A stretch of 25,857 bases of DNA from a virus (IMGVR_UViG_3300040985_000942:1-25857); one strand, 5' to 3'; positions 1,262-12,400 are shown, counted from the stretch's first letter. Notes: generated by a model from the letters alone, not told the origin. A program made the numbers and translations.

Positions 1262-1301
1262 GATGTTGTCGCAAGGGAGCGACTGATAGAGAGGGTGGAC
1301 A

Positions 1302-1532: not shown

Positions 1533-1712
1533 ATGAGCGACTACGGCAGAGCACACAGCGAAGAGATTCAGGACCGAATCGACCGGGTAGAGCGCTTCCG
1601 GGGGGAAGCTGAATTCGATTACTTGCAGCGTGAGAGCCCGGAAGATAAGGCTTGCAGGTTGTATCACGAGAAGAAGGACCGGGAACTGGAGGAAGGGCGG
1701 CCTTGCAAATGA
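1533..1712 (+). CDS. hypothetical protein (59 aa, not in ORF track)
   Basis: GGAGGGAG RBS; MSDYGRAHSEEIQDRIDRVERFRGEAEFDYLQRES...GRPCK*. Confidence 0.65.
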   Translation: MSDYGRAHSEEIQDRIDRVERFRGEAEFDYLQRESPEDKACRLYHEKKDRELEEGRPCK

Positions 1713-1731
1713 TCTCCCAATGTGCCATAGT
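1703..1731 (+). promoter_or_regulatory. sigma70-like promoter of HNH cassette 1
   Basis: TTGCAA, 17-nt spacer ending in TGC, CATAGT; same layout as 5210-5238. Confidence 0.7.
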
Positions 1732-1737
1732 AGTTGG

Positions 1738-1825
1738 GCCAAGGAATGATCCCCTTGGCGAGCGATATGCTCACGTGGGGGGTAGGGTCCGAGCCTACCC
1801 CCTGCGTCCTAACTCGGAGGGCACC
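1738..1825 (+). ncRNA. structured 5' leader RNA, copy 1 (three hairpins; loop complementary to the RBS region)
   Basis: P1 GCCAAGG/CCTTGGC; P2 GAGC-GATAT-GCTC; P3 14-bp stem 1773-1786/1794-1807 with loop GTCCGAG complementary to CTCGGA (1813-1818), which overlaps the SD GGAGG. Confidence 0.7.
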
Positions 1826-2500
1826 ATGAGAGGAACACCGCTTACTGTAGACCAGATCGTAAAAATCAAGAAACTTCTCGTCGCAAAGTTTGGGACCATG
1901 GCTGAAATAGGCGCAACCGTCAGCGTTTCCGCTGCTGCCGTCTGCTATGTGGCAAACAGAATAACCGGAGAAGCTGTTGCCGTTCCTGGTTTTGACAAAT
2001 GGCGAAAAATGCGAGACTGGAATCGCAGGCCAAAAGTCAAATTTTTGCGCAGGGTCATGGAGGACAATGAAAACGGTTGCTGGAACTGGACTGGAAAGAC
2101 AAACAAAAAAGGCTATGCCCTTGCTGACGGCGTTGTGACCGGTGATTACCTCGGGCACAGAACATCATATAGGCTCTACAAAGGTGACATTCCGGACGGC
2201 CTGTATGTTCTACACAAATGCAACAACCGGCGCTGCGTAAATCCTGACCACCTATACGCTGGGACACAATTTCAGAATATGCAGGATTCAATCAGGGCCG
2301 GAACGCATGTCAGTATGAGGAAAGGCTTTATGTCAAACCACAAACTTACGGAAGTGATGGTTATTGATGCCCGCAGAAGGTTTGCTGCCGGTGAGTCACA
2401 ACCGTCAATAGCGGCGGACATGGGAGTGCACAAGTCTACTATCCTGAACGCAGTCAACGGGCACACATGGGGCCACGTAAAGGAGGGATTGAAATGTTGA
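1826..2500 (+). CDS. HNH endonuclease with N- and C-terminal HTH-like domains
   Basis: GCWNWTG..GY..HRTSY..IPDGLYVLHKCNNRRCVNPDHLYAGTQFQNMQD (His-Me finger, HNH_3 type); C-terminal KLTE..IAADMGVHKSTI..GHTWGHV. ATG 1826 has a GGAGG SD. Confidence 0.9.
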   Translation: MRGTPLTVDQIVKIKKLLVAKFGTMAEIGATVSVSAAAVCYVANRITGEAVAVPGFDKWRKMRDWNRRPKVKFLRRVMEDNENGCWNWTGKTNKKGYALADGVVTGDYLGHRTSYRLYKGDIPDGLYVLHKCNNRRCVNPDHLYAGTQFQNMQDSIRAGTHVSMRKGFMSNHKLTEVMVIDARRRFAAGESQPSIAADMGVHKSTILNAVNGHTWGHVKEGLKC

Positions 2501-3297
2501 AACCCGTTCACCTCACAACAAGCGCAGCCCTATTCGCTGAGTGTCTAGTTGCCCGCGGCGTCGACAAGGTACACGCCGCAATTTACGCCATTATGATAGC
2601 CCGCTCGAACCAGATGGTAGACGAATGGACGCCCGACAAGGCGACGATTGATTGCCCTGCCACGCAGGTAGACATTGACGACGCCGCAACGGTTGCGATG
2701 GTTCTCACCGGGAACACTTACCCGCTGATGACACGGGGCGATAGGTTCCATTTTGATAAGTCGCAAGGGTGGCCCAAAATCGAGCAGCTGATTGCCCGCC
2801 TGATCCGGTGTATCAATGAGGGTGTTGTCTGTGACGACTTCACGTTGATGGCTATCGGTGTGGCCCTGCACAACATATGGGACACATCTGGCCCCCATGC
2901 TGATTACCTCGGATACCCACACAATGCCAACCGTCTACTGGCTATCAAGCGGCGCTCTGAGCGTGGTGATTCCGTTGGATTCTGGTGGCGCTGGAAACTC
3001 AGCAAGGCGGCAAGTTGGGGTCATTCGGCAGATCGTGATGCTGACAACATCGAGCATAACAGGCAAGCGACGAACGATAGCGCGGTGCGTTTGTGGTCAA
3101 TGGTGACTGGCAGGGATGCAGGATACCTTGACGAGATACGGACCATTATCGCAATCAACAAAGCTGCCAACGATGACGAGTTGCACGGGCTCTGTGCGAC
3201 CATCTTTGAGCTAGCGACTGGTGAGCACTTCCCGGGGTTCGTACCGTTTGCGGGGGGTGAGTTGGTGACGTGGAAGTCTGTGGTTGGAGGGGCGTGA
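2494..3297 (+). CDS. hypothetical protein (267 aa)
   Basis: AGGAGG RBS; overlaps the HNH stop; no recognised motif. Confidence 0.75.
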   Translation: MLKPVHLTTSAALFAECLVARGVDKVHAAIYAIMIARSNQMVDEWTPDKATIDCPATQVDIDDAATVAMVLTGNTYPLMTRGDRFHFDKSQGWPKIEQLIARLIRCINEGVVCDDFTLMAIGVALHNIWDTSGPHADYLGYPHNANRLLAIKRRSERGDSVGFWWRWKLSKAASWGHSADRDADNIEHNRQATNDSAVRLWSMVTGRDAGYLDEIRTIIAINKAANDDELHGLCATIFELATGEHFPGFVPFAGGELVTWKSVVGGA

Positions 3298-3536
3298 TGA
3301 GCAAATTCATCGAAGTATGCTGGCACTTTGACGAAGAGTACATTCCCGTTCGTGGTCACGTCGATTTGGCGACGTTCAACCGGGAGACATGGGCGTATGG
3401 ATACGAGCCTGTCGGGCTCATTCGGCACACGTATTGGCGATGCGTGCCGGATCGTACTGGTGAGTTTGCTTTTCGCTACGTGTTCGATGTTTTGCCTGGG
3501 CGAGGGGCGTTTGCTGTGACGGTTTATGACTGCTAA
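3297..3536 (+). CDS. hypothetical protein
   Basis: GGAGG RBS; TGATG coupling with the previous gene. Confidence 0.7.
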   Translation: MSKFIEVCWHFDEEYIPVRGHVDLATFNRETWAYGYEPVGLIRHTYWRCVPDRTGEFAFRYVFDVLPGRGAFAVTVYDC

Positions 3537-3546
3537 CGGAGAAAGC

Positions 3547-3690
3547 ATGACCACCAAACCAACAACCCGCCACTTCATCCGCTACGGCTGGCGGTCCCTC
3601 AGAGAAGCGGTGCCCGTGGTGGCGCTGTGGACCGTGGGGCTGCTGGTGGTCACGGTGGAGGGATGGTGGCGCAAGAGGAGGGGGAGATGA
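3547..3690 (+). CDS. small membrane protein (47 aa, not in ORF track)
   Basis: GGAG RBS; hydrophobic AVPVVALWTVGLLVVTV followed by WWRKRRGR. Confidence 0.55.
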   Translation: MTTKPTTRHFIRYGWRSLREAVPVVALWTVGLLVVTVEGWWRKRRGR

Positions 3691-4196
3691 TAGGTGATCA
3701 ATTTTGGATGATCAGGCGAACCGTCAACGGACAGGCGGAATGGTTGGCGGGGTGGGAGCCTGTGTCACTACAGGACATGCAGAAGTTGGGCAGCCCTGAC
3801 CTATGGGTGCAAGATAAGGCGGTCTGGTCAAGCGTCACGATGAAGAGTTGCATGTACCCGGAGAGTCATGCCGAAGCGATGGCCAGAATTGCCGGGGGAG
3901 AGGCGTTACTGTTTGGGATGGTTGCCGCCAAGGACGCCGAGATCTCCCGGCTGACAGCGGAGAATAGCCGCCTGCTGGACCAGCGTGACCGCATCGACTG
4001 CGAGGTGCGTGAGGGCAACGGGACGTACCACTGTGCGCTGGATAACAAGTGCGATGCGTGCCTGATGCGGGGGGAGATTCGGCGGCTCAAGGAACGTGCA
4101 AGCGAATATGCCAACGCCCTGACGTACATCGAAAACGCAGTGCCTGACGGGATTGCGTTGGTGGCGAGGGCACTTACTGCGGGGAGGGGGAGATGA
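3687..4196 (+). CDS. hypothetical protein with coiled coil and Cys cluster
   Basis: GAGGGGGAG RBS; KDAEISRLTAENSRL coiled coil; C..HCALDNKCDAC. Confidence 0.7.
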   Translation: MIGDQFWMIRRTVNGQAEWLAGWEPVSLQDMQKLGSPDLWVQDKAVWSSVTMKSCMYPESHAEAMARIAGGEALLFGMVAAKDAEISRLTAENSRLLDQRDRIDCEVREGNGTYHCALDNKCDACLMRGEIRRLKERASEYANALTYIENAVPDGIALVARALTAGRGR

Positions 4197-4489
4197 AACT
4201 GTACGAATGGCGCAGCGGTAGTGAGATTGCGGGGATTGTGGCACCAACTAAGGCCGTGGCACGGGCGACGTATGAAGAGTATTTGCGCACGGACTGCGCA
4301 CTAGACGAGGACGACATTTTGGATGAGATGCAGTCGGGCCGGGTCGTAGATGTGTTGAAGAGAGCACTTGACGCCGAATGGATTGACGACCTTGACACCG
4401 ATCTCAACCCCATCAGAACGTCGTGGCGCAAACAACTTGCTGCGTGGGGCGACGCTGCCCCCTGCGTGGCGTATTCGGACCAGTGGTAA
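4193..4489 (+). CDS. hypothetical acidic protein
   Basis: ATGA overlap with the previous gene; strong G-rich RBS. Confidence 0.7.
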   Translation: MKLYEWRSGSEIAGIVAPTKAVARATYEEYLRTDCALDEDDILDEMQSGRVVDVLKRALDAEWIDDLDTDLNPIRTSWRKQLAAWGDAAPCVAYSDQW

Positions 4490-4499
4490 GGAGGGGGAG

Positions 4500-4646
4500 A
4501 TGAGCGGAGCCGCCGTTGAGATAGTGCAGGTCTTTGCCCTGCTTGTGATATTTGGTGCCGTGATGTGCATCGCTGGGATCGTCAGTGAATACGTTTTTAG
4601 ATGGAAAGAACGCCGCCGAATAAGGCGGGTAATGGGGGGGAAATGA
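4500..4646 (+). CDS. small single-pass membrane protein
   Basis: AAGGAGGGGG RBS; IVQVFALLVIFGAVMCIAGIV followed by a basic tail. Confidence 0.65.
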   Translation: MSGAAVEIVQVFALLVIFGAVMCIAGIVSEYVFRWKERRRIRRVMGGK

Positions 4647-4942
4647 GTTACACGGTCAAAGAATTGCAGGAAGTAATGAGTGCAAAGTGTCCAAAGTGCG
4701 AAGAGTTTCCCGGCACCGGCTGGCGTTCCTGTTTGAGTTGCGCCAAGTACCGCATCACAGTTTCGCATGGCATAGTAGGAGAACAGCAATCAGAGATCGC
4801 CCGGCTGCGGGAAGCGGTGCGGGTGCGGGACGTGCCAATACGTTCACTCGGCTTCGGTAACGTCTGCCGCCACTGTTCAGCGAGCAACGAAGGGCATGCC
4901 GACGACTGCCCCACCGTCACCCACCCACTGGAGGCCAAATGA
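4643..4942 (+). CDS. Cys/His-rich hypothetical protein
   Basis: CPKC..CLSC..EIARLRE..CRHC..GHADDC. Confidence 0.7.
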   Translation: MSYTVKELQEVMSAKCPKCEEFPGTGWRSCLSCAKYRITVSHGIVGEQQSEIARLREAVRVRDVPIRSLGFGNVCRHCSASNEGHADDCPTVTHPLEAK

Positions 4943-5106
4943 CCACCACCGAAATCATCAAAGCCATCCTCGCCGCCCTAACCGCTGGAGTGGAGGCTCA
5001 GTTGACCTTCGACGGTATCAACCTCGACGGGATCGGGGAAATCAAGGCGCTCACCGTGACGCTACGGGCGGGCAAAACGAAGGAGGGCGATGGACTGAAG
5101 CGGTAG
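4939..5106 (+). CDS. hypothetical protein (55 aa, not in ORF track)
   Basis: GGAGG RBS, ATGA overlap; MTTTEIIKAILAALTAGVEAQLTFDG...GLKR*. Confidence 0.6.
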   Translation: MTTTEIIKAILAALTAGVEAQLTFDGINLDGIGEIKALTVTLRAGKTKEGDGLKR

Positions 5107-5209
5107 TTTTGTGCGCCGAATATCACATCAAGATTCTTGGCGCGGCGAAGATGGCAGGCCAGCAGCCGAGTTCGAGTCTCGACACTTCGTCTATGAATAT
5201 AAAAAACAA

Positions 5210-5238
5210 TTGCAAGGCACGGCGCAAAGTGCCATACT
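5210..5238 (+). promoter_or_regulatory. sigma70-like promoter of HNH cassette 2
   Basis: TTGCAA, 17-nt spacer ending in TGC, CATACT; A-tract upstream. Confidence 0.7.
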
Positions 5239-5244
5239 GAGGGA

Positions 5245-5329
5245 GTCAGGGAGTAATTACCTTGGCGAGCGATATGCTCATACGGGGGCAGGGCCCGAGC
5301 CTGCCCCCGTAACCTACTCGGGAGGTGTC
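5245..5329 (+). ncRNA. structured 5' leader RNA, copy 2
   Basis: P1 GTCAGGG/CCTTGGC; P2 identical to copy 1; P3 perfect 12-bp stem 5281-5292/5300-5311 with loop GCCCGAG complementary to CTCGGG (5317-5322), which overlaps the SD GGAGG. Confidence 0.7.
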
Positions 5330-5986
5330 ATGCAAGACCCAGAAACCCACGGACAGCATCAGCAGTATAATAATGACAACCTAACAGGCGAGATCTGGTT
5401 GCCGGTTCCTGGCTACGAAGCCCAGTACGAAGTTTCGTCATTCGGAAGGGTTCGGTCAAGGCGCTGGGATAGGAAGTTTTTATCTTTGGCTGCGCTGCGA
5501 GAAGGATATCCGGTTGTTACACTATGTTATGGAGGGAATTGTCGCAGTGAAAACGTGCACAGGATAGTGCTTGCAGCGTTTCGAGGCGAACCGCCAACAA
5601 GGAAACACGTATCAAGACACCTTGACGGGAATCAAACCAACAACCGCCTCGACAACTTAGCATGGGGGACTCAGAAAGAAAATATCGCTGACGCGAGGCG
5701 ACACGGAACCATGGCAAGAGGTTCCAGAGCTGGGGCTTCAGTGCTGACGGAATCTGGCGTTGCTGAAATAGCGGTGCTTATCAGCAAGGGGGTCTCCGAC
5801 CGGGTCATTGCAGATAGATTCGGCATGTCCGAAAGTGCCATATGGGGAATCAGGTCAGGCAAGAGTTGGGGTTGGCTTACTGGAATAGACAAGAATAGAC
5901 CGCGCCCCAAGCGAACGCGGAGATGCACGCAGAGTCGCAACAAGTCTGGTCAATTTTGTCACAATGACAACGAGCCCAACGAATGA
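5330..5986 (+). CDS. NUMOD4-HNH endonuclease with C-terminal HTH
   Basis: EIWLPVPGYEAQYEVSSFGRVRS (NUMOD4); VHRIVLAAF..SRHLDGNQTNNRLDNLAWGTQKEN (HNH); LTE..IADRFGMSESAI..GKSW. Confidence 0.9.
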   Translation: MQDPETHGQHQQYNNDNLTGEIWLPVPGYEAQYEVSSFGRVRSRRWDRKFLSLAALREGYPVVTLCYGGNCRSENVHRIVLAAFRGEPPTRKHVSRHLDGNQTNNRLDNLAWGTQKENIADARRHGTMARGSRAGASVLTESGVAEIAVLISKGVSDRVIADRFGMSESAIWGIRSGKSWGWLTGIDKNRPRPKRTRRCTQSRNKSGQFCHNDNEPNE

Positions 5987-6624
5987 GATCCCTTTTCGCA
6001 CACACACCAAACATGAACGCCAAAGAAGGCGAATACCGCGGCGACCGTGAGACACCCCGCAGCCTTGCTCGTCTACTGTCACGAGACTTCGGGCCATTCG
6101 ACATTGACGTATCAGCGGCACCGCATAACGCCGTGTGCGATCGGTTCTTCACTGCCGAGGATGACGGGTTGGTGCAACCGTGGGGGCCTGTCGATTACAC
6201 GCACAAGCGCAAGACGTTGACCAGAGCAGCGAACTGCTTCTGCAATCCGACTTACAGAGAGCCAGCGCCCGAGCAATTCAGCGCAAAGGCCCTTGACGAA
6301 GCACTAGCGGGCAATGCCGCCACGTTGATGCTGATACCCGGCACCAAGACAGAGCAAGACTTCTGGCACCGTTACGTTGTGGGGTTGGGCAGCAAGGGCG
6401 CACCTGGGGCGGGAGCATCTGCAATCATTCACGTAGTCGGGCGCATCGCATTTGAGTTGGGCGGCGTGCCTCAGAAGGGCAGCGATCACGCATCCGTGTT
6501 GATCTACTGGCGACCGGGTTACGTGTCGTCTGTGGAGCGGTGGCACCATCGGTTGCCTATCGTGGGGAGTTACCACCAGCGCCTTGGCATGATGCCGGGG
6601 CGAGAGTTTGAGTGGAGGGAGTGA
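5983..6624 (+). CDS. phage DNA N6-adenine methyltransferase (Dam-like)
   Basis: ETP..FDIDVSA..NAVCDRFFTAEDDGLVQPW..FCNPTY..LIP..T..W..GRIAF fits the phage Dam (T1/HP1-type) family; the catalytic motif reads NPTY. Confidence 0.85.
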   Translation: MRSLFAHTPNMNAKEGEYRGDRETPRSLARLLSRDFGPFDIDVSAAPHNAVCDRFFTAEDDGLVQPWGPVDYTHKRKTLTRAANCFCNPTYREPAPEQFSAKALDEALAGNAATLMLIPGTKTEQDFWHRYVVGLGSKGAPGAGASAIIHVVGRIAFELGGVPQKGSDHASVLIYWRPGYVSSVERWHHRLPIVGSYHQRLGMMPGREFEWRE

Positions 6625-8682: not shown

Positions 8683-8711
8683 TTGACCCCGCCGCCTCCA
8701 CATGGCACACT
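8683..8711 (+). promoter_or_regulatory. sigma70-like promoter
   Basis: TTGACC, 17-nt spacer ending in TGG, CACACT; followed by GGAGG and ATG 8732. Confidence 0.5.
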
Positions 8712-8731
8712 ACCGCAAACGGAGGTCTCCA

Positions 8732-10051
8732 ATGCGCACACTCAGAAACATTGTATTTCTATCCTGTTTCCTCTTCACCACATCGGCACTCGGGCAGCAA
8801 GTCATCTTGCAAGGGGTGTACAACCCGCTTACCGATGACAATCAGACGTTCCTTATCGATCCAGTCACCGGTTTACCGAGCCAGCAATGCTACATGAGCG
8901 ATGGCACCGGCACTCCCATTACATCGACGGGTGGCAAACTAGACGTAGCCATGGCACTTCCCGCGGGCGGGGCTACTGAGGCGAAGCAGGACGATGCGAT
9001 TGCACTGCTCACCACGATAGACGCCGATACCAGCAAGATCCCGGCGTCACCCGCCACCGCTGGGGCACAAGCAACCGGCAATATGTCCCTCTCAGCCATT
9101 GAAGGCGACTCGGCAAGCATGGCCCTGAACAATGCTACGAAGGCGAATCAGGTGTTGCAGTTGACCGATAGCGGGATTATTGCGGGGGATACTACGGCCA
9201 TATCTGTCGACACTCTCGCCATTGCAGCAGACACCGCACAACTCGTGATCGATATGGTTTCGCTACTGGCGGACACCGCTGCGATGCTGGCCAAACTACC
9301 GACGTTAGAAGACGGCATGCAGCCAACGATTGCCTACCCGGTAATGATTTCAAAGGGGCTAGTTGCGGGCCACGTCGCCCTAAACAAATTTGGATACAAC
9401 CCCGCAGTAGGTGTAGACTGGGAGCCAATATGGGAGGGTTCAGCGGTCTACGACTTCCTGTCAGTTGAAGAAGAGTTCAAGATCAAGAGCGATAGTGTTG
9501 AGGATGACACAGACAAGGGCGGGGCTGTACCGGGGACGGGGGCGTTCACTGTCGAGGTGCAATGCATCAATCAGGCCGGTGCGCAAGTGGTTCAGGTGTA
9601 TACCCTGAATGGCCAAACAGCCGTAGACATGACTCTAGGTGATTGCCTTATCGCATATCGAGCGAGGGTACTCACTGCTGGTACGGGCGGGGCAAACGAT
9701 GGAACCATTACAATCTATCAAAATGACGGGGCCACTGCACAACTCCTGATTACCCCCTTCAACAACCAGAGCCTTCAGGCGTTATGGCCGGTGCCAGCGG
9801 GCAAGACTCTTTATATCACCCACATAAATGCATCCGAAGTAGGCAACCAGAACGTAGAGGTTGGGTTGTTTGTGATGGAGTTGGGGGAGCTATTTCAGAT
9901 CAAGCAGCACGCCATTTTCAAGAACGAAGTATGGGAGCGCCCACTACGTTACCCGATCGTGGCTGGCCCTCAGTCGGTTGTCTACATGGGCGCAAGGGCA
10001 CTAGTCGGTTCAGGGAACGTTTCAGCGATGTTTGATGGCTGGTATGAATAG
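8732..10051 (+). CDS. signal-peptide protein with coiled-coil stalk and beta-rich C-terminal domain
   Basis: MRTLRNIVFLSCFLFTTSALG|Q signal-like N-terminus; heptad IxxDT repeats; beta-rich domain starting ISKGLVAGHVALNKFGYNP. Confidence 0.75.
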   Translation: MRTLRNIVFLSCFLFTTSALGQQVILQGVYNPLTDDNQTFLIDPVTGLPSQQCYMSDGTGTPITSTGGKLDVAMALPAGGATEAKQDDAIALLTTIDADTSKIPASPATAGAQATGNMSLSAIEGDSASMALNNATKANQVLQLTDSGIIAGDTTAISVDTLAIAADTAQLVIDMVSLLADTAAMLAKLPTLEDGMQPTIAYPVMISKGLVAGHVALNKFGYNPAVGVDWEPIWEGSAVYDFLSVEEEFKIKSDSVEDDTDKGGAVPGTGAFTVEVQCINQAGAQVVQVYTLNGQTAVDMTLGDCLIAYRARVLTAGTGGANDGTITIYQNDGATAQLLITPFNNQSLQALWPVPAGKTLYITHINASEVGNQNVEVGLFVMELGELFQIKQHAIFKNEVWERPLRYPIVAGPQSVVYMGARALVGSGNVSAMFDGWYE

Positions 10052-10132: not shown

Positions 10133-10696
10133 ATGGCGACCCAGAAGAAAACCAGAAAGAAGCCTGAGAAGCCGGGGCCAAAGCAACCCGACAGACACCC
10201 GATCCTGTTGCTGCCTGATGAGGCTTTTGAACACGCAGCCAACGGGGCAACCGATAGCACCATCCGCAAAATCTATGGGTTGAATAGGCGGGATTGGTAC
10301 AACGGGCTAGAGCAACACGCAGAGATTCGTGAACGTCTACTGCGCGCCCGCAATCAGATGTTTGCTAATGTCGAAAGCGCCTTGTACCGCAGAGCCATGG
10401 GCGTACTCGTCGAGCGGGAAACAAAGGACGGCGGATCGTTTGTCTATGAAGTAGCCCCGGACGTTGCCGCTATCAAGTACCTGCTATCCACGCAGAAGGC
10501 TAGGGACTGGCAGGCAGAGAGTAAGTTGAACGTCAACCACTCAGGCAGCGTTGACAAGAAAGCCCCCGCCCTAGAGGACATGACGCCGGAGGAAATCACC
10601 GCACAGGTCCAAGCGGCCATTGCAGAGCAGGCGAAGCGGGCGGCTCAGGAGAGCGGTGGCGTTGCTGTTGAGTCAAGCGAGACTGTGCCGAATTAG
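10133..10696 (+). CDS. terS: terminase small subunit
   Basis: N-terminal HTH; VESALYRRAMG..VAPDVAAIKYLL..W pattern; position at the start of the packaging module. Confidence 0.75.
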   Translation: MATQKKTRKKPEKPGPKQPDRHPILLLPDEAFEHAANGATDSTIRKIYGLNRRDWYNGLEQHAEIRERLLRARNQMFANVESALYRRAMGVLVERETKDGGSFVYEVAPDVAAIKYLLSTQKARDWQAESKLNVNHSGSVDKKAPALEDMTPEEITAQVQAAIAEQAKRAAQESGGVAVESSETVPN

Positions 10697-10723
10697 ACAA
10701 CCCGCCACCGAATATGGTACCTT
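10694..10723 (+). promoter_or_regulatory. sigma70-like promoter of the methyltransferase-nuclease cassette
   Basis: TAGACA, 18-nt spacer ending in TGG, TACCTT. Confidence 0.5.
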
Positions 10724-10735
10724 CCACTAGAACCT

Positions 10736-10790
10736 GTCAGCCGGGGCGGTGGACTGGAAGCTGTCGCCTTGGCTGGCACCCTTCCAGAGG
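10736..10790 (+). ncRNA. structured 5' leader hairpin, copy 3 (different sequence, same architecture)
   Basis: 17-bp stem 10736-10752/10761-10777 with 6 G-U pairs; loop ACTGGAAG complementary to CTTCCAG (10781-10787), which runs into the SD GAGG. Confidence 0.65.
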
Positions 10791-10797
10791 TTGACAC

Positions 10798-11883
10798 ATG
10801 GAAACGCCAAAGATTGACCCTGCCTTTCAGTCTCAAATCCCACCACTAGCCGAAGACGAGCGGGCCTTACTTGAATCTAGCATTGTCGCTGAGGGTTGTC
10901 GTGATGCCCTAGTTGTCTGGGAGGAAATGGGAGTCTTGCTCGACGGGCACAACCGCCTGTCTATCTGCATGGACCATGGCATCCCGTATCAATTGCTGTA
11001 TATGGCATTTGACGATAGGGAAGATGCGGCTGATTGGGTAGATGCTAACCAACTAGGCCGCCGCAACTTATCACCTGACACCATGAGCCTGATCCGGGGC
11101 CGACGGTACAACCGGACAAAGAAGGCGGCGCACCGTCCAAAGAAAGGGGGTCAAAATGATCCCGTTACTGGGCGTACCGCCGAACGCCTAGCCAAAGAGC
11201 ATGGGGTAAGCGCGCCGACAATCAAGCGAGACGGGCGGTTCGCAGCATCAGTTGAAACGCTCAAGCCAACCATGCCCGACATTGAGCAGCGAGTGCTGGC
11301 TGGTGACATACCAAGTAAGGCGGCAGTGGTGGAGGCCGCAAGGGAACCAGAGACAGCGCCAGAAACACTCGCACGAAAGCCGCACGTATCCAACAACTCA
11401 GGCAACAACGAGTGGTACACGCCAGCGCCATTTGTCGAAATCGCACGGGTTGCAATGGGCGGCATAGACTGCGATCCTGCTTCATCTGAGATTGCCAACG
11501 AAACAGTAAAGGCCGGTACGTTCTACACGGTCGAGGATAACGGTCTTGCTCAGGAGTGGGGCGGGAACGTTTTTCTAAACCCGCCGTATTCACAACCGCT
11601 AGTTGCTCACTTCTGCGATAAGCTCTTGCTGGAAATTGGTAGCGGTAACGTGCATCAGGCTTGCGTGCTCGTCAATAACGCCACTGACACCGTTTGGTGC
11701 CAGGGGCTACTCGAAGCATGCTCTGCCGTGTGTTTGCTGCGGGGGCGGGTTAGGTTCACCGGACCAGAAGGGGAGAAGGGGGCACCGCTACAGGGGCAGA
11801 TCTTGCTTTACTTTGGTTCCGGTTTTGAGGGGTTCGCAAAGGAGGCCAGCGCCAAAGGCGTTGTGCTGTTCAATGGCATTTAG
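10798..11883 (+). CDS. ParB-like domain fused to a Dam-like N6-adenine methyltransferase
   Basis: IPPL..E...LE.SI..EG.RD.LVVW..LLDGHNR..NQLGRRNL (ParB-like); EWYTP..IDCDPAS..DNGL.QEW.GNVFLNPPYS..LVNNATDT.W..GRVRF (methyltransferase). Confidence 0.9.
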   Translation: METPKIDPAFQSQIPPLAEDERALLESSIVAEGCRDALVVWEEMGVLLDGHNRLSICMDHGIPYQLLYMAFDDREDAADWVDANQLGRRNLSPDTMSLIRGRRYNRTKKAAHRPKKGGQNDPVTGRTAERLAKEHGVSAPTIKRDGRFAASVETLKPTMPDIEQRVLAGDIPSKAAVVEAAREPETAPETLARKPHVSNNSGNNEWYTPAPFVEIARVAMGGIDCDPASSEIANETVKAGTFYTVEDNGLAQEWGGNVFLNPPYSQPLVAHFCDKLLLEIGSGNVHQACVLVNNATDTVWCQGLLEACSAVCLLRGRVRFTGPEGEKGAPLQGQILLYFGSGFEGFAKEASAKGVVLFNGI

Positions 11884-12400
11884 GGAAACGCTAAAGTTTG
11901 GCCGTCTTGCTGAGTCTGCGATTGCTCAGTGGCTCATGCGGCGAGGCTTTGCTATCCTGCCAGCCTACGAACTTGAATCAGGTGACAGGTTCAAGGGGCC
12001 ACAATTCTATTGCACGGATGCATCATTTGCCACACCCGACCTGCTTGCTGCCCGACGAAGTTTGAGCGAATGGCAGGTGATGTGGATTGAGGCGAAGCAC
12101 AAGACAGCCTTCAGTTACTACCGAAAGACCGGCGAGTGGTGCACCGGGATCGACCTGAAGAGTTACGCCGATTACATTCAGGTGGCAAAGCGGTCGCCGT
12201 GGCGCGTGTGGTTGCTGTTCCTGCACCGTGGGGGGCAAGCAAAGGATAGCCCGGCAGAGAGCCCGGCGGGGCTGTACGGTAACTCCCTTGAGTACCTGCA
12301 AAAGCATGAGCACCACCGATCGGACAAGTACGCTAACGGCATGGTATACTGGGCAGAGAGCGTATTGAAGAAACTGGCAGAACTTGACGAGGTATTGTGA
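11873..12400 (+). CDS. PD-(D/E)XK restriction-endonuclease-fold nuclease
   Basis: G..AE helix, TPDLLA..WIEAKHK catalytic motif; overlaps the methyltransferase stop; start taken as ATG 11873. Confidence 0.75.
   Translation: MAFRETLKFGRLAESAIAQWLMRRGFAILPAYELESGDRFKGPQFYCTDASFATPDLLAARRSLSEWQVMWIEAKHKTAFSYYRKTGEWCTGIDLKSYADYIQVAKRSPWRVWLLFLHRGGQAKDSPAESPAGLYGNSLEYLQKHEHHRSDKYANGMVYWAESVLKKLAELDEVL

What the first reader, a model, noticed from the sequence alone, without database searches (positions are those of the whole stretch)
1703..5332. Same promoter + structured RNA leader in front of two different HNH nucleases, with compensatory changes
Seen: 1703-1828 and 5210-5332 share a layout. Each has TTGCAA-17-CATA(G/C)T, hairpin P1 starting about where +1 is expected, an identical 21-mer CCTTGGCGAGCGATATGCTCA (1753-1773 = 5260-5280), a long hairpin P3, a 5-nt linker, a loop-complementary hexamer overlapping GGAGG, and the ATG. 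Differences keep the pairing: P3 T-A becomes C-G (GTAGG/CCTAC vs GCAGG/CCTGC), P1 changes give G-U pairs (GCCAAGG vs GTCAGGG against CCTTGGC), and loop and target change together (TCCGAG/CTCGGA vs CCCGAG/CTCGGG). The downstream genes have different architectures (HTH-HNH-HTH vs NUMOD4-HNH-HTH), so this is not a plain gene duplication. Inference: a portable expression-control RNA module for toxic or mobile HNH genes, or an RNA that associates with the nuclease. I do not recognise it as a named family. RBS-sequestering hairpins are established for T4 homing endonucleases such as I-TevI, but those are simple cis hairpins.
Basis: partly seen in the sequence, partly recalled or inferred. Interest (0 to 1): 0.85.

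Follow-up and report, generated by a model that had tools for sequence, protein, structure and literature searches.

The report
Pseudoknot leader before phage DNA enzymes
An uncultured, probably marine, phage and a relative put the same promoter-like signal and folded leader, a hairpin whose loop is complementary to the ribosome-binding site, in front of five interchangeable DNA-cutting or DNA-methylating gene cassettes, where it likely throttles their translation and likely helps the cassettes swap.

Summary
A related phage record (G001) carries a third copy before a third kind of nuclease, with six double compensatory changes in P3 and a changed loop/target pair. All 33 loop-target pairs are Watson-Crick; 0 of 900 shuffles give three such sites. 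P1 and the 21-mer occur only in the three nuclease copies, which are mosaics of each other. No Rfam family matches. A nuclease-bound RNA is unlikely: the cargo proteins share no domain. Best reading: a portable promoter-leader cassette whose CPK-1-type pseudoknot masks part of the ribosome-binding site and damps translation. Against it: the in-molecule pseudoknot is energetically marginal in four copies and unfavourable in one, so activation or pairing between molecules remains open. No RNA data exist. Earlier notes of this scan report similar leaders in other phages (unchecked). New variant of a known kind.

The parts
1533..1712 (+). Small upstream ORF (59 aa, no family); its last codons hold the -35 of copy A and its stop overlaps an ATG at 1709 that is in frame with HNH A
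1703..1731 (+). Copy A: sigma-70-like promoter candidate, -35/17/extended -10
   Evidence: 28/29 identical in G001; not mapped
1738..1759 (+). Copy A: P1 hairpin (7 bp, 8-nt loop) at the predicted 5' end
1753..1773 (+). 21-mer (P1 3' arm + P2 hairpin 1760-1772), identical in A, B and G001; similarity of A to G001 ends at its last base
1773..1807 (+). Copy A: P3 (14 bp; top 9-10 bp = predicted pseudoknot stem 1), loop 1787-1793
1813..1820 (+). Copy A: loop-complementary hexamer 1813-1818 overlapping SD 1816-1820
1826..2500 (+). HNH endonuclease A (HNH_3, C-terminal HTH), 224 aa
5210..5238 (+). Copy B: sigma-70-like promoter candidate
5245..5279 (+). Copy B: P1 (two G-U pairs relative to A) and P2
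5281..5311 (+). Copy B: P3 (12 bp), loop 5293-5299
5317..5326 (+). Copy B: loop-complementary hexamer 5317-5322 overlapping SD 5321-5326
5330..5986 (+). HNH endonuclease B (NUMOD4-HNH_3-HTH), 218 aa; codons 2-14 match the start of the G001 nuclease (30/39 nt)
5983..6624 (+). Dam-family adenine methyltransferase, start overlapping the stop of HNH B
10694..10723 (+). Copy C: sigma-70-like promoter candidate (-35/18/extended -10) right after the small terminase stop
10735..10778 (+). Copy C: P3 (18 bp, 6 G-U), loop 10753-10760; no P1 or P2
10781..10791 (+). Copy C: loop-complementary heptamer 10781-10787 overlapping SD 10786-10791
10798..11883 (+). Dam-family methyltransferase with an N-terminal domain that looks ParB-like by eye (label recalled), 361 aa; cassette absent from G001 and from Logan relatives
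11873..12400 (+). Probable PD-(D/E)xK nuclease (no Pfam or PHROG family; predicted fold near Hjc clusters, TM 0.62-0.70, below the naming bar)

Best explanation
This is a reusable promoter-and-leader cassette that this phage lineage places in front of accessory nuclease and methyltransferase genes, and its leader RNA likely folds into an H-type pseudoknot that masks the first 2-4 bases of the Shine-Dalgarno site and so likely holds translation down. Shown by sequence: five copies in two phage records, full complementarity with compensatory changes, conserved spacing, mosaic boundaries and exchanged cargo genes. Inferred: a host-type promoter starts the RNA at P1 (or just before P3 in copy C); the top 9-11 bp of P3 act as stem 1, one purine crosses the 6-7 bp stem 2, and 8-10 nt form the long connecting loop; the lowest pairs of P3 compete with this fold, so the leader would be poised between an extended hairpin and the pseudoknot and would let only part of the ribosome traffic through. 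Inferred too: the conserved blocks (promoter-P1, 21-mer, P3, first codons) serve as crossover points through which nuclease genes are swapped.
For: Copy G1 was found by the 21-mer alone and copy G2 by a model without the pseudoknot (12.7 bits, E 0.25), yet each has 7 of 7 Watson-Crick loop-target pairs. Across five copies: 33 of 33 loop-target pairs Watson-Crick, 45 of 45 top-stem pairs canonical, junction pairs G-C and A-U invariant; loop-end-to-target 17-20 nt, target-to-start 7-10 nt. A/B/G1 alignment: 8 of 30 pairs with double changes, 96.6% of cells paired against 35-48% in slid controls. G-U pairs favour the sense strand by 4-12 kcal/mol. 3 sites with SD+start in the window against a mean of 0.02 in 900 shuffles, none with 3; 0 in 45 unrelated methylase loci and 0 in 72 HNH loci. 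Geometry fits CPK-1 (PMC3835772, passages). RBS-masking structures repress T-even homing endonucleases (PMC2988022, passages). Mosaic identities; cassette C absent from relatives; better-matching promoters at 1234 and 6922 before non-enzyme genes have no such leader.
Against: No expression, probing or reporter data. By nearest-neighbour bookkeeping before any pseudoknot penalty, the in-molecule pseudoknot is only -2.5 (A), -4.6 (B), -1.2 (G1), +0.2 (G2) and +5.9 (C) kcal/mol from the nested fold; C must open about 7 basal pairs (15 kcal/mol; the loop-length rule used is recalled). The nested fold already pairs SD bases in a 4-5 bp hairpin in A, B, C and G1, so the pseudoknot may not reduce access. 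Three SD bases stay free. Only two phage records; A, B and G1 share descent. The descriptor was written after seeing four copies, so only C is a fresh test (16 of 900 shuffles give one such site). A VRR-NUC nuclease gene in G001 has no leader. No trigger was found.
Confidence: 0.55

Rival explanations
1. Activator pseudoknot: loop-target pairing opens the small SD hairpin (P4) and presents the rest of the SD and the start codon, working like the repZ/repA pseudoknot of IncI1/IncB plasmids, perhaps after a ribosome has run through the leader.
For: A 4-5 bp hairpin over the SD is in the nested fold of A, B, C, G1; three SD bases remain free in the pseudoknot. The leader is an open frame, in frame with the nuclease, in A, B and G1 (59, 77, 68+ codons), with an ATG overlapping the upstream stop in A. 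repZ precedent: PMC8053102, passages.
Against: The target overlaps the SD instead of lying beside it. The in-frame open leader is absent in C and G2, its peptide is not conserved through P3, and no protein with such an extension was found. No minus-strand U-tract for an antisense RNA.
Confidence: 0.17
2. Pairing in trans: the loop of one transcript pairs with the target of another (symmetric dimer or chain), leaving the full stem intact; repression would rise with transcript concentration.
For: The two longest stems (C 18 bp, G2 about 18 with internal loop) leave only 2 free nt before the target, too few for an in-molecule knot. C, G1 and G2 loops pair only with their own target (-9.3 to -9.7 against -4.4 or weaker).
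Against: Loop-to-target distance is held at 17-20 nt, as an in-molecule knot needs. A and B of the same genome cross-pair (-7.6). mRNA concentrations are low (general knowledge).
Confidence: 0.12
3. Mainly a DNA-level PeSL-like shuffling cassette or terminator/operator; the RNA pairing is incidental.
For: Promoter + G/C-run stem-loop + SD before variable genes, with mosaic boundaries, as for PeSLs (PMC2839356, passages). P1 and P2 are inverted repeats just downstream of the promoter and A and B have HTH domains.
Against: G-U-type substitutions on the sense strand only; covarying loop-target pairs have no DNA-level reason; no U-tract after P3 on either strand; the stems lie downstream of the -10, not within the promoter as most PeSL stems do.
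Confidence: 0.07
4. Ligand-sensing riboswitch (for example SAM, since three of five cassettes encode methyltransferases) in which ligand stabilises the marginal pseudoknot.
For: Poised energetics; SAM/SAH riboswitch is an H-type pseudoknot (PMC7367207, start of abstract).
Against: No Rfam riboswitch match at E<=10 on the copies; almost no conserved unpaired bases among five copies; two cassettes have no methyltransferase.
Confidence: 0.05
5. RNA partner, guide or scaffold of the HNH nuclease (HEARO/omegaRNA-like; names recalled).
For: P1 and the 21-mer occur only in the three nuclease copies.
Against: The G001 nuclease shares only its first 12 residues with B and lacks HNH_3, NUMOD4 and HTH hits; the core also heads methyltransferases; no 3' end signal; 0 of 72 HNH-B relatives carry it (CM on 25 of them); no Rfam match.
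Confidence: 0.04

Closest known systems
RBS-sequestering hairpins of T-even homing endonuclease genes (I-TevI, I-TevII, I-TevIII, segB, Aeh1 mobE; PMC2988022 and PMC3014915, passages)
   Same: Cis RNA structure over the ribosome-binding site of a mobile phage nuclease gene with its own promoter.
   Different: There the SD is in a simple hairpin stem and a late promoter inside the 5' arm frees it. Here the SD is met by a loop, the only promoter candidate lies upstream of the whole fold, and methyltransferase genes use it too. The non-masking seg43(25) hairpin has a loop with no complement to its SD.
PeSL cassettes of T4-type phages (PMC2839356 passages; PMC4122927 first third)
   Same: About 100-130 bp: sigma-70-like promoter, G/C-run stem-loop, SD, start; repeated before variable genes; chimeric copies point to crossover.
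   Different: PeSL stems usually lie between or over the promoter boxes and act as terminators; no loop-to-SD pairing in the passages read. Here the stems are transcribed, lack U-tracts, have no AT-rich upstream tract in A, C or G1, and the cargo is nucleases and methylases.
CPK-1 pseudoknots, founded by the phage T2/T4 gene 32 autoregulatory pseudoknot (PMC3835772, PMC3014915 passages)
   Same: Stem 2 of 6-7 bp, 1-2 nt crossing loop, no gap between the stems; in a phage 5' leader.
   Different: The gene 32 knot lies about 67 nt upstream and nucleates gp32 binding; here stem 2 contains SD bases, stem 1 is long with a competing basal extension, and no binding protein is apparent.
repZ/repA activator pseudoknot of IncI1 and IncB/O plasmids (PMC8053102 passages)
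   Same: Hairpin loop pairing with bases at the translation start region.
   Different: That knot is required for translation and is blocked by an antisense RNA with a leader peptide; no antisense unit or universal leader peptide here.
Pseudoknot riboswitches that mask the SD (preQ1-I, SAM-II, SAM/SAH; mostly recalled)
   Same: H-type knot whose second stem takes in the first SD bases.
   Different: No Rfam match and no conserved ligand pocket.

Membership tests
T-even HEG RBS hairpins | Upstream of a mobile endonuclease gene | tested here: met
   A, B, G1 precede HNH-type nucleases; C and G2 do not
T-even HEG RBS hairpins | SD inside the stem of a very stable simple hairpin | tested here: not met
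   SD lies outside P3; only a 4-5 bp hairpin or the loop contact covers it
T-even HEG RBS hairpins | Late promoter within the 5' arm that yields a structure-free transcript | tested here: inconclusive
   Only sigma-70-like candidates upstream of the fold were found; this phage's late promoter is unknown
PeSL | Sigma-70-like promoter + stem-loop + SD repeated before variable genes | tested here: met
   promoters are weak matches (8 of 12)
PeSL | Stem-loop between or over the promoter boxes, acting as terminator | tested here: not met
   Stems lie downstream of the -10, no U-tract; termination itself not assayed
PeSL | Recombination between copies, mini-circles | tested here: inconclusive
   Mosaic copies; no joint seen in Logan contigs
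CPK-1 pseudoknot | Stem 2 of 6-7 bp, crossing loop 1-2 nt, stems adjacent | tested here: met
   5 of 5 copies by sequence
CPK-1 pseudoknot | Both stems form at once in one molecule | tested here: inconclusive
   Needs 3-4 basal pairs opened in A, B, G1, the lower stem in G2, about 7 in C; no probing
repZ-type activator pseudoknot | Leader peptide coupling and antisense RNA across the hairpin | tested here: not met
   Open in-frame leader in 3 of 5 copies only; no minus-strand terminator tail
repZ-type activator pseudoknot | Pseudoknot needed for translation | not testable with these tools
   needs reporters
Known riboswitch or other Rfam family (incl. HEARO) | Covariance-model match | tested here: not met
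   only chance matches far below gathering scores
Nuclease-associated guide/scaffold RNA | Fixed partnership with one nuclease family | tested here: not met
   Five unrelated or distant first genes; 0 of 72 HNH-B relatives

The most novel reading that the evidence does not exclude
A protein-free feedback device for phage DNA-enzyme cassettes: leader RNAs pair loop-to-SD between transcripts, each cassette with its own loop code, so that a nuclease or methylase message shuts off its own translation as it accumulates; the same cassette doubles as the crossover site that moves these genes.
Probability: 0.12. Interest if true: 0.87.

Novelty: new variant of a known kind. Interest (0 to 1): 0.57.

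Why it matters
Phages must ration the nucleases and methylases they pick up. The described solutions are simple RBS hairpins tied to T4 late promoters, and transcription-level PeSL cassettes. This shows a third design: one portable leader, kept by structure and not by sequence, reused for homing-type nucleases and methyltransferases, with natural compensatory variants that make it directly testable in reporters. If unchecked notes on other phages hold up, loop-to-SD leaders are a recurring, uncatalogued class of phage translational control.

Tried and rejected
Metagenome scan with a 19-mer: 5 of 5 hits were chance, inside other genes or without the fold. Viral scan 14-mer+SD: 9 of 10 chance, 1 the G001 copy. 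N-terminal codon pattern: only G001. GTDB genomes: nothing by pattern or by the neighbour-gene alignment. Neighbour gene in viral contigs: none, then only G001; 16 further homologous proteins exist but their DNA could not be fetched. Annotated phages: one chance blastn hit; terminase relatives at most 26%, so no host could be named. Capsid-gene relatives: CM match in 1 of 10 records, G001 itself; descriptor 4 hits without SD+start in the 9 others, mostly fragments. Leader-as-coding-sequence idea: open frame in 3 of 5 copies only, no homologous peptides. Upstream-decoy idea (P1 arm or upstream bases pairing with the loop): p 0.06-0.78 against shuffles, not supported. Frameshift or readthrough signal: no slippery heptamer seen by eye, first genes of C and G2 have in-frame stops just upstream. 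Terminator: no U-tract. Sequencing runs: no RNA holder listed; contigs cover the region patchily. seg43(25) hairpin is not a loop-to-SD case. PMC3851714 had nothing on a folding-delay precedent; the MS2 maturation-gene timer is recalled only and not used as evidence. No structure or complex prediction was run. Supplements were not read.
Full report
Setting. The window is a whole 25,857-base virus record: early-type small genes, then terminase, portal and structural genes. Near-identical pieces lie in contigs of seawater DNA runs. No cultured relative is close (terminase at most 26% identical), so the host is unknown.

Observation. The two leaders are the largest direct repeat in the window, fold as P1-P2-P3 far better than shuffles (z -3.6 and -3.5), and match nothing in Rfam 15 (narrower scans at E<=10). 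The promoter is a weak consensus match (8 of 12 plus extended TG) and is unmapped. HNH A and HNH B are 25% identical over 185 residues.

A third nuclease copy. An exact search of viral contigs for the 21-mer gave one record, G001, a syntenic relative (capsid about 50%, small terminase 92%). At the same site as copy A, before an orthologue of the 2494-3297 gene, it has the leader, but behind it a zinc-finger nuclease of another family (phrog_2340; no HNH_3 hit). Its P3 has a different sequence and keeps the stem; its loop and target have changed together. On the three-copy alignment, 8 of 30 pairs show changes on both sides (6 in P3, 2 in the loop-target helix), 96.6% of cells pair, against 35-48% when partners are slid. 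With three related sequences this is not a formal covariation test.

The copies are mosaics. Promoter: A-G1 28/29, others 20/29. Start of P1: A-G1 20/21, others 9-10/21. 21-mer: identical. Inner P3 and loop: A-B 22/25, others 13-14/25. Codons 2-14: B-G1 30/39, others 10-11/39. The blastn match of A to G001 stops at 1773, the last base of the 21-mer. HNH B therefore begins with a remnant of a G001-type gene start followed by NUMOD4. One Logan contig (X2, record 10) has ten listed differences in 1547-1616 and none listed in 1617-1818, which would fit recent exchange of the leader, though an assembly chimera is possible.

The core is not HNH-specific. A covariance model of the three copies, which does not model the loop-target helix, gave a weak extra match in G001 (12.7 bits, E 0.25). 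It precedes an SNF2-helicase/N6-N4 methylase at the site where the window has HNH B plus Dam, and has 7 of 7 loop-target pairs. A descriptor (stem of 7 or more, loop 6-10, 6 or more Watson-Crick loop-target pairs, SD and start) then found exactly three sites in the window and two in G001, all with SD and start. The new window site, copy C at 10735-10800, precedes a Dam-family methylase and a probable PD-(D/E)xK nuclease. This cassette sits between the terminase genes and is replaced by a small ORF in G001 and in Logan relatives, whose loose ends at 10672 (X1, X2) and 12398 (X2) read as G001. Controls: 900 shuffles of the window gave a mean of 0.02 sites, one or more in 16, three in none; 45 methylase loci of other phages (330 kb) gave 7 knots, 0 with SD and start; 72 loci of HNH-B relatives (117 kb, many redundant) gave 0; 9 more distant capsid relatives gave 4 knots, 0 with SD and start. 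The descriptor was written after seeing four copies, so only C is a fresh test, but C also shows features the descriptor does not ask for (below). All three nuclease or methylase cassettes that I could identify in the window have the leader; in G001 two do and a VRR-NUC gene does not. Two better promoter matches before non-enzyme genes have short leaders without it.

Shared anatomy. A G-C closing pair; one unpaired purine (two bases in G1); 6-7 loop bases running to the loop's 3' end; 33 of 33 loop-target pairs Watson-Crick, with G-C and A-U invariant at the junction; 45 of 45 canonical pairs in the top nine of the stem; 17-20 nt from loop end to target; target covering the first 2-4 SD bases; 7-10 nt to the start codon; a promoter-like element just upstream (score 9 in four copies, 8 in one; 2 and 9 of 167 controls reach these). 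The sense strand folds 4-12 kcal/mol better than the antisense, as G-U pairs in an RNA would give. This is the CPK-1 geometry (stem 2 of 6-7 bp, 1-2 nt crossing loop; PMC3835772, passages).

The difficulty. The full P3 is 12-18 bp and leaves 2-5 free bases before the target, too few to span it (rule of thumb recalled from the IBV knot). An in-molecule knot needs the basal 3-4 pairs open in A, B and G1 (4-6 kcal/mol), the lower stem in G2 and about 7 pairs in C (15 kcal/mol). The crude balance against the nested fold is -2.5, -4.6, -1.2, +0.2 and +5.9 kcal/mol before a knot penalty. The constant 17-20 nt spacing argues that the in-molecule knot is what is selected, with the basal pairs as a competing state; copy C argues for extra stabilisation or pairing in trans. 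In the nested fold a 4-5 bp hairpin already covers SD bases in four copies, so the sign of the effect cannot be read from sequence.

Mechanism. I commit to damping (0.55): host polymerase would start at P1, the leader would equilibrate between extended hairpin and knot, both hiding part of the SD, and nuclease or methylase output would stay low. Basis: sequence and controls above; precedent of RBS-masking structures before T-even homing endonucleases (PMC2988022, PMC3014915, passages). Rivals: activator knot as for repZ (0.17; PMC8053102, passages), pairing between transcripts (0.12), DNA-level PeSL-like element only (0.07), riboswitch (0.05), nuclease partner RNA (0.04).

Comparison. It works like the T-even hairpins but fails their defining simple-stem feature. 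It is built like a PeSL (PMC2839356, passages; PMC4122927, first third) but its stems are transcribed and lack terminator tails. It has CPK-1 geometry but takes SD bases into stem 2. Five literature searches (listings only, open-licence library, so subscription papers are missing) listed no paper whose title or abstract start describes such a leader before phage nucleases or methylases. Earlier notes of this scan describe similar loop-to-SD leaders in other phages; a look-up by sequence found no look-alike, a second word search and the look-up by place found nothing, and I did not check those notes. The PeSL lead came from one of them.

Verdict. New variant of a known kind; interest 0.57, limited by two records and no functional data.

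Noticed in passing
window 1709-1825, 5111-5329; L001 3-206: In the three nuclease copies the whole promoter-leader is free of stops in the nuclease frame (59, 77, 68+ codons); in A and G001 an ATG overlaps the upstream gene's stop, so an N-terminally extended nuclease could be made by coupling from read-through transcripts.
   Followed up: partly
window 10673-12397: Methylase plus probable PD-(D/E)xK nuclease inserted between small and large terminase genes, replacing a 76-aa ORF found in G001; possibly a phage-borne restriction-modification-like pair.
   Followed up: partly
window 2494-3297: 267-aa protein without Pfam or PHROG family, 17 relatives at 39-60% identity with invariant C, H and D residues; lies right behind the site-A nuclease in both phages and may be its homing target.
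   Followed up: partly
L020 2997-3038: G2 stem has a 3x3 purine-rich internal loop between a 9-bp upper and a 6-bp lower stem; resembles but does not fit a kink-turn (consensus recalled).
   Followed up: no
L020 2563-2790 and 2830-2960: Gly-Ser-rich repeat ORF after a DUF6948 gene, then about 130 nt of non-coding DNA before leader G2 that shares short blocks with window 5075-5140.
   Followed up: no
window 1669 (run X3, record 17): A related strain diverges from the window 34 nt before the copy A -35, within the last codons of the upstream gene; it may lack the cassette, but only 30 loose letters were shown.
   Followed up: no
window 1266-1281: Small hairpin (5 bp, 6-nt loop) in the leader behind the promoter-like site at 1234-1261; no loop-to-SD complement.
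   Followed up: no
L104 541-640: A 16-bp hairpin just upstream of an unrelated HNH gene without an SD, seen while screening HNH loci.
   Followed up: no
window 8702-10051: 449-aa ORF absent from G001, matching only phrog_8198 (unknown function).
   Followed up: no
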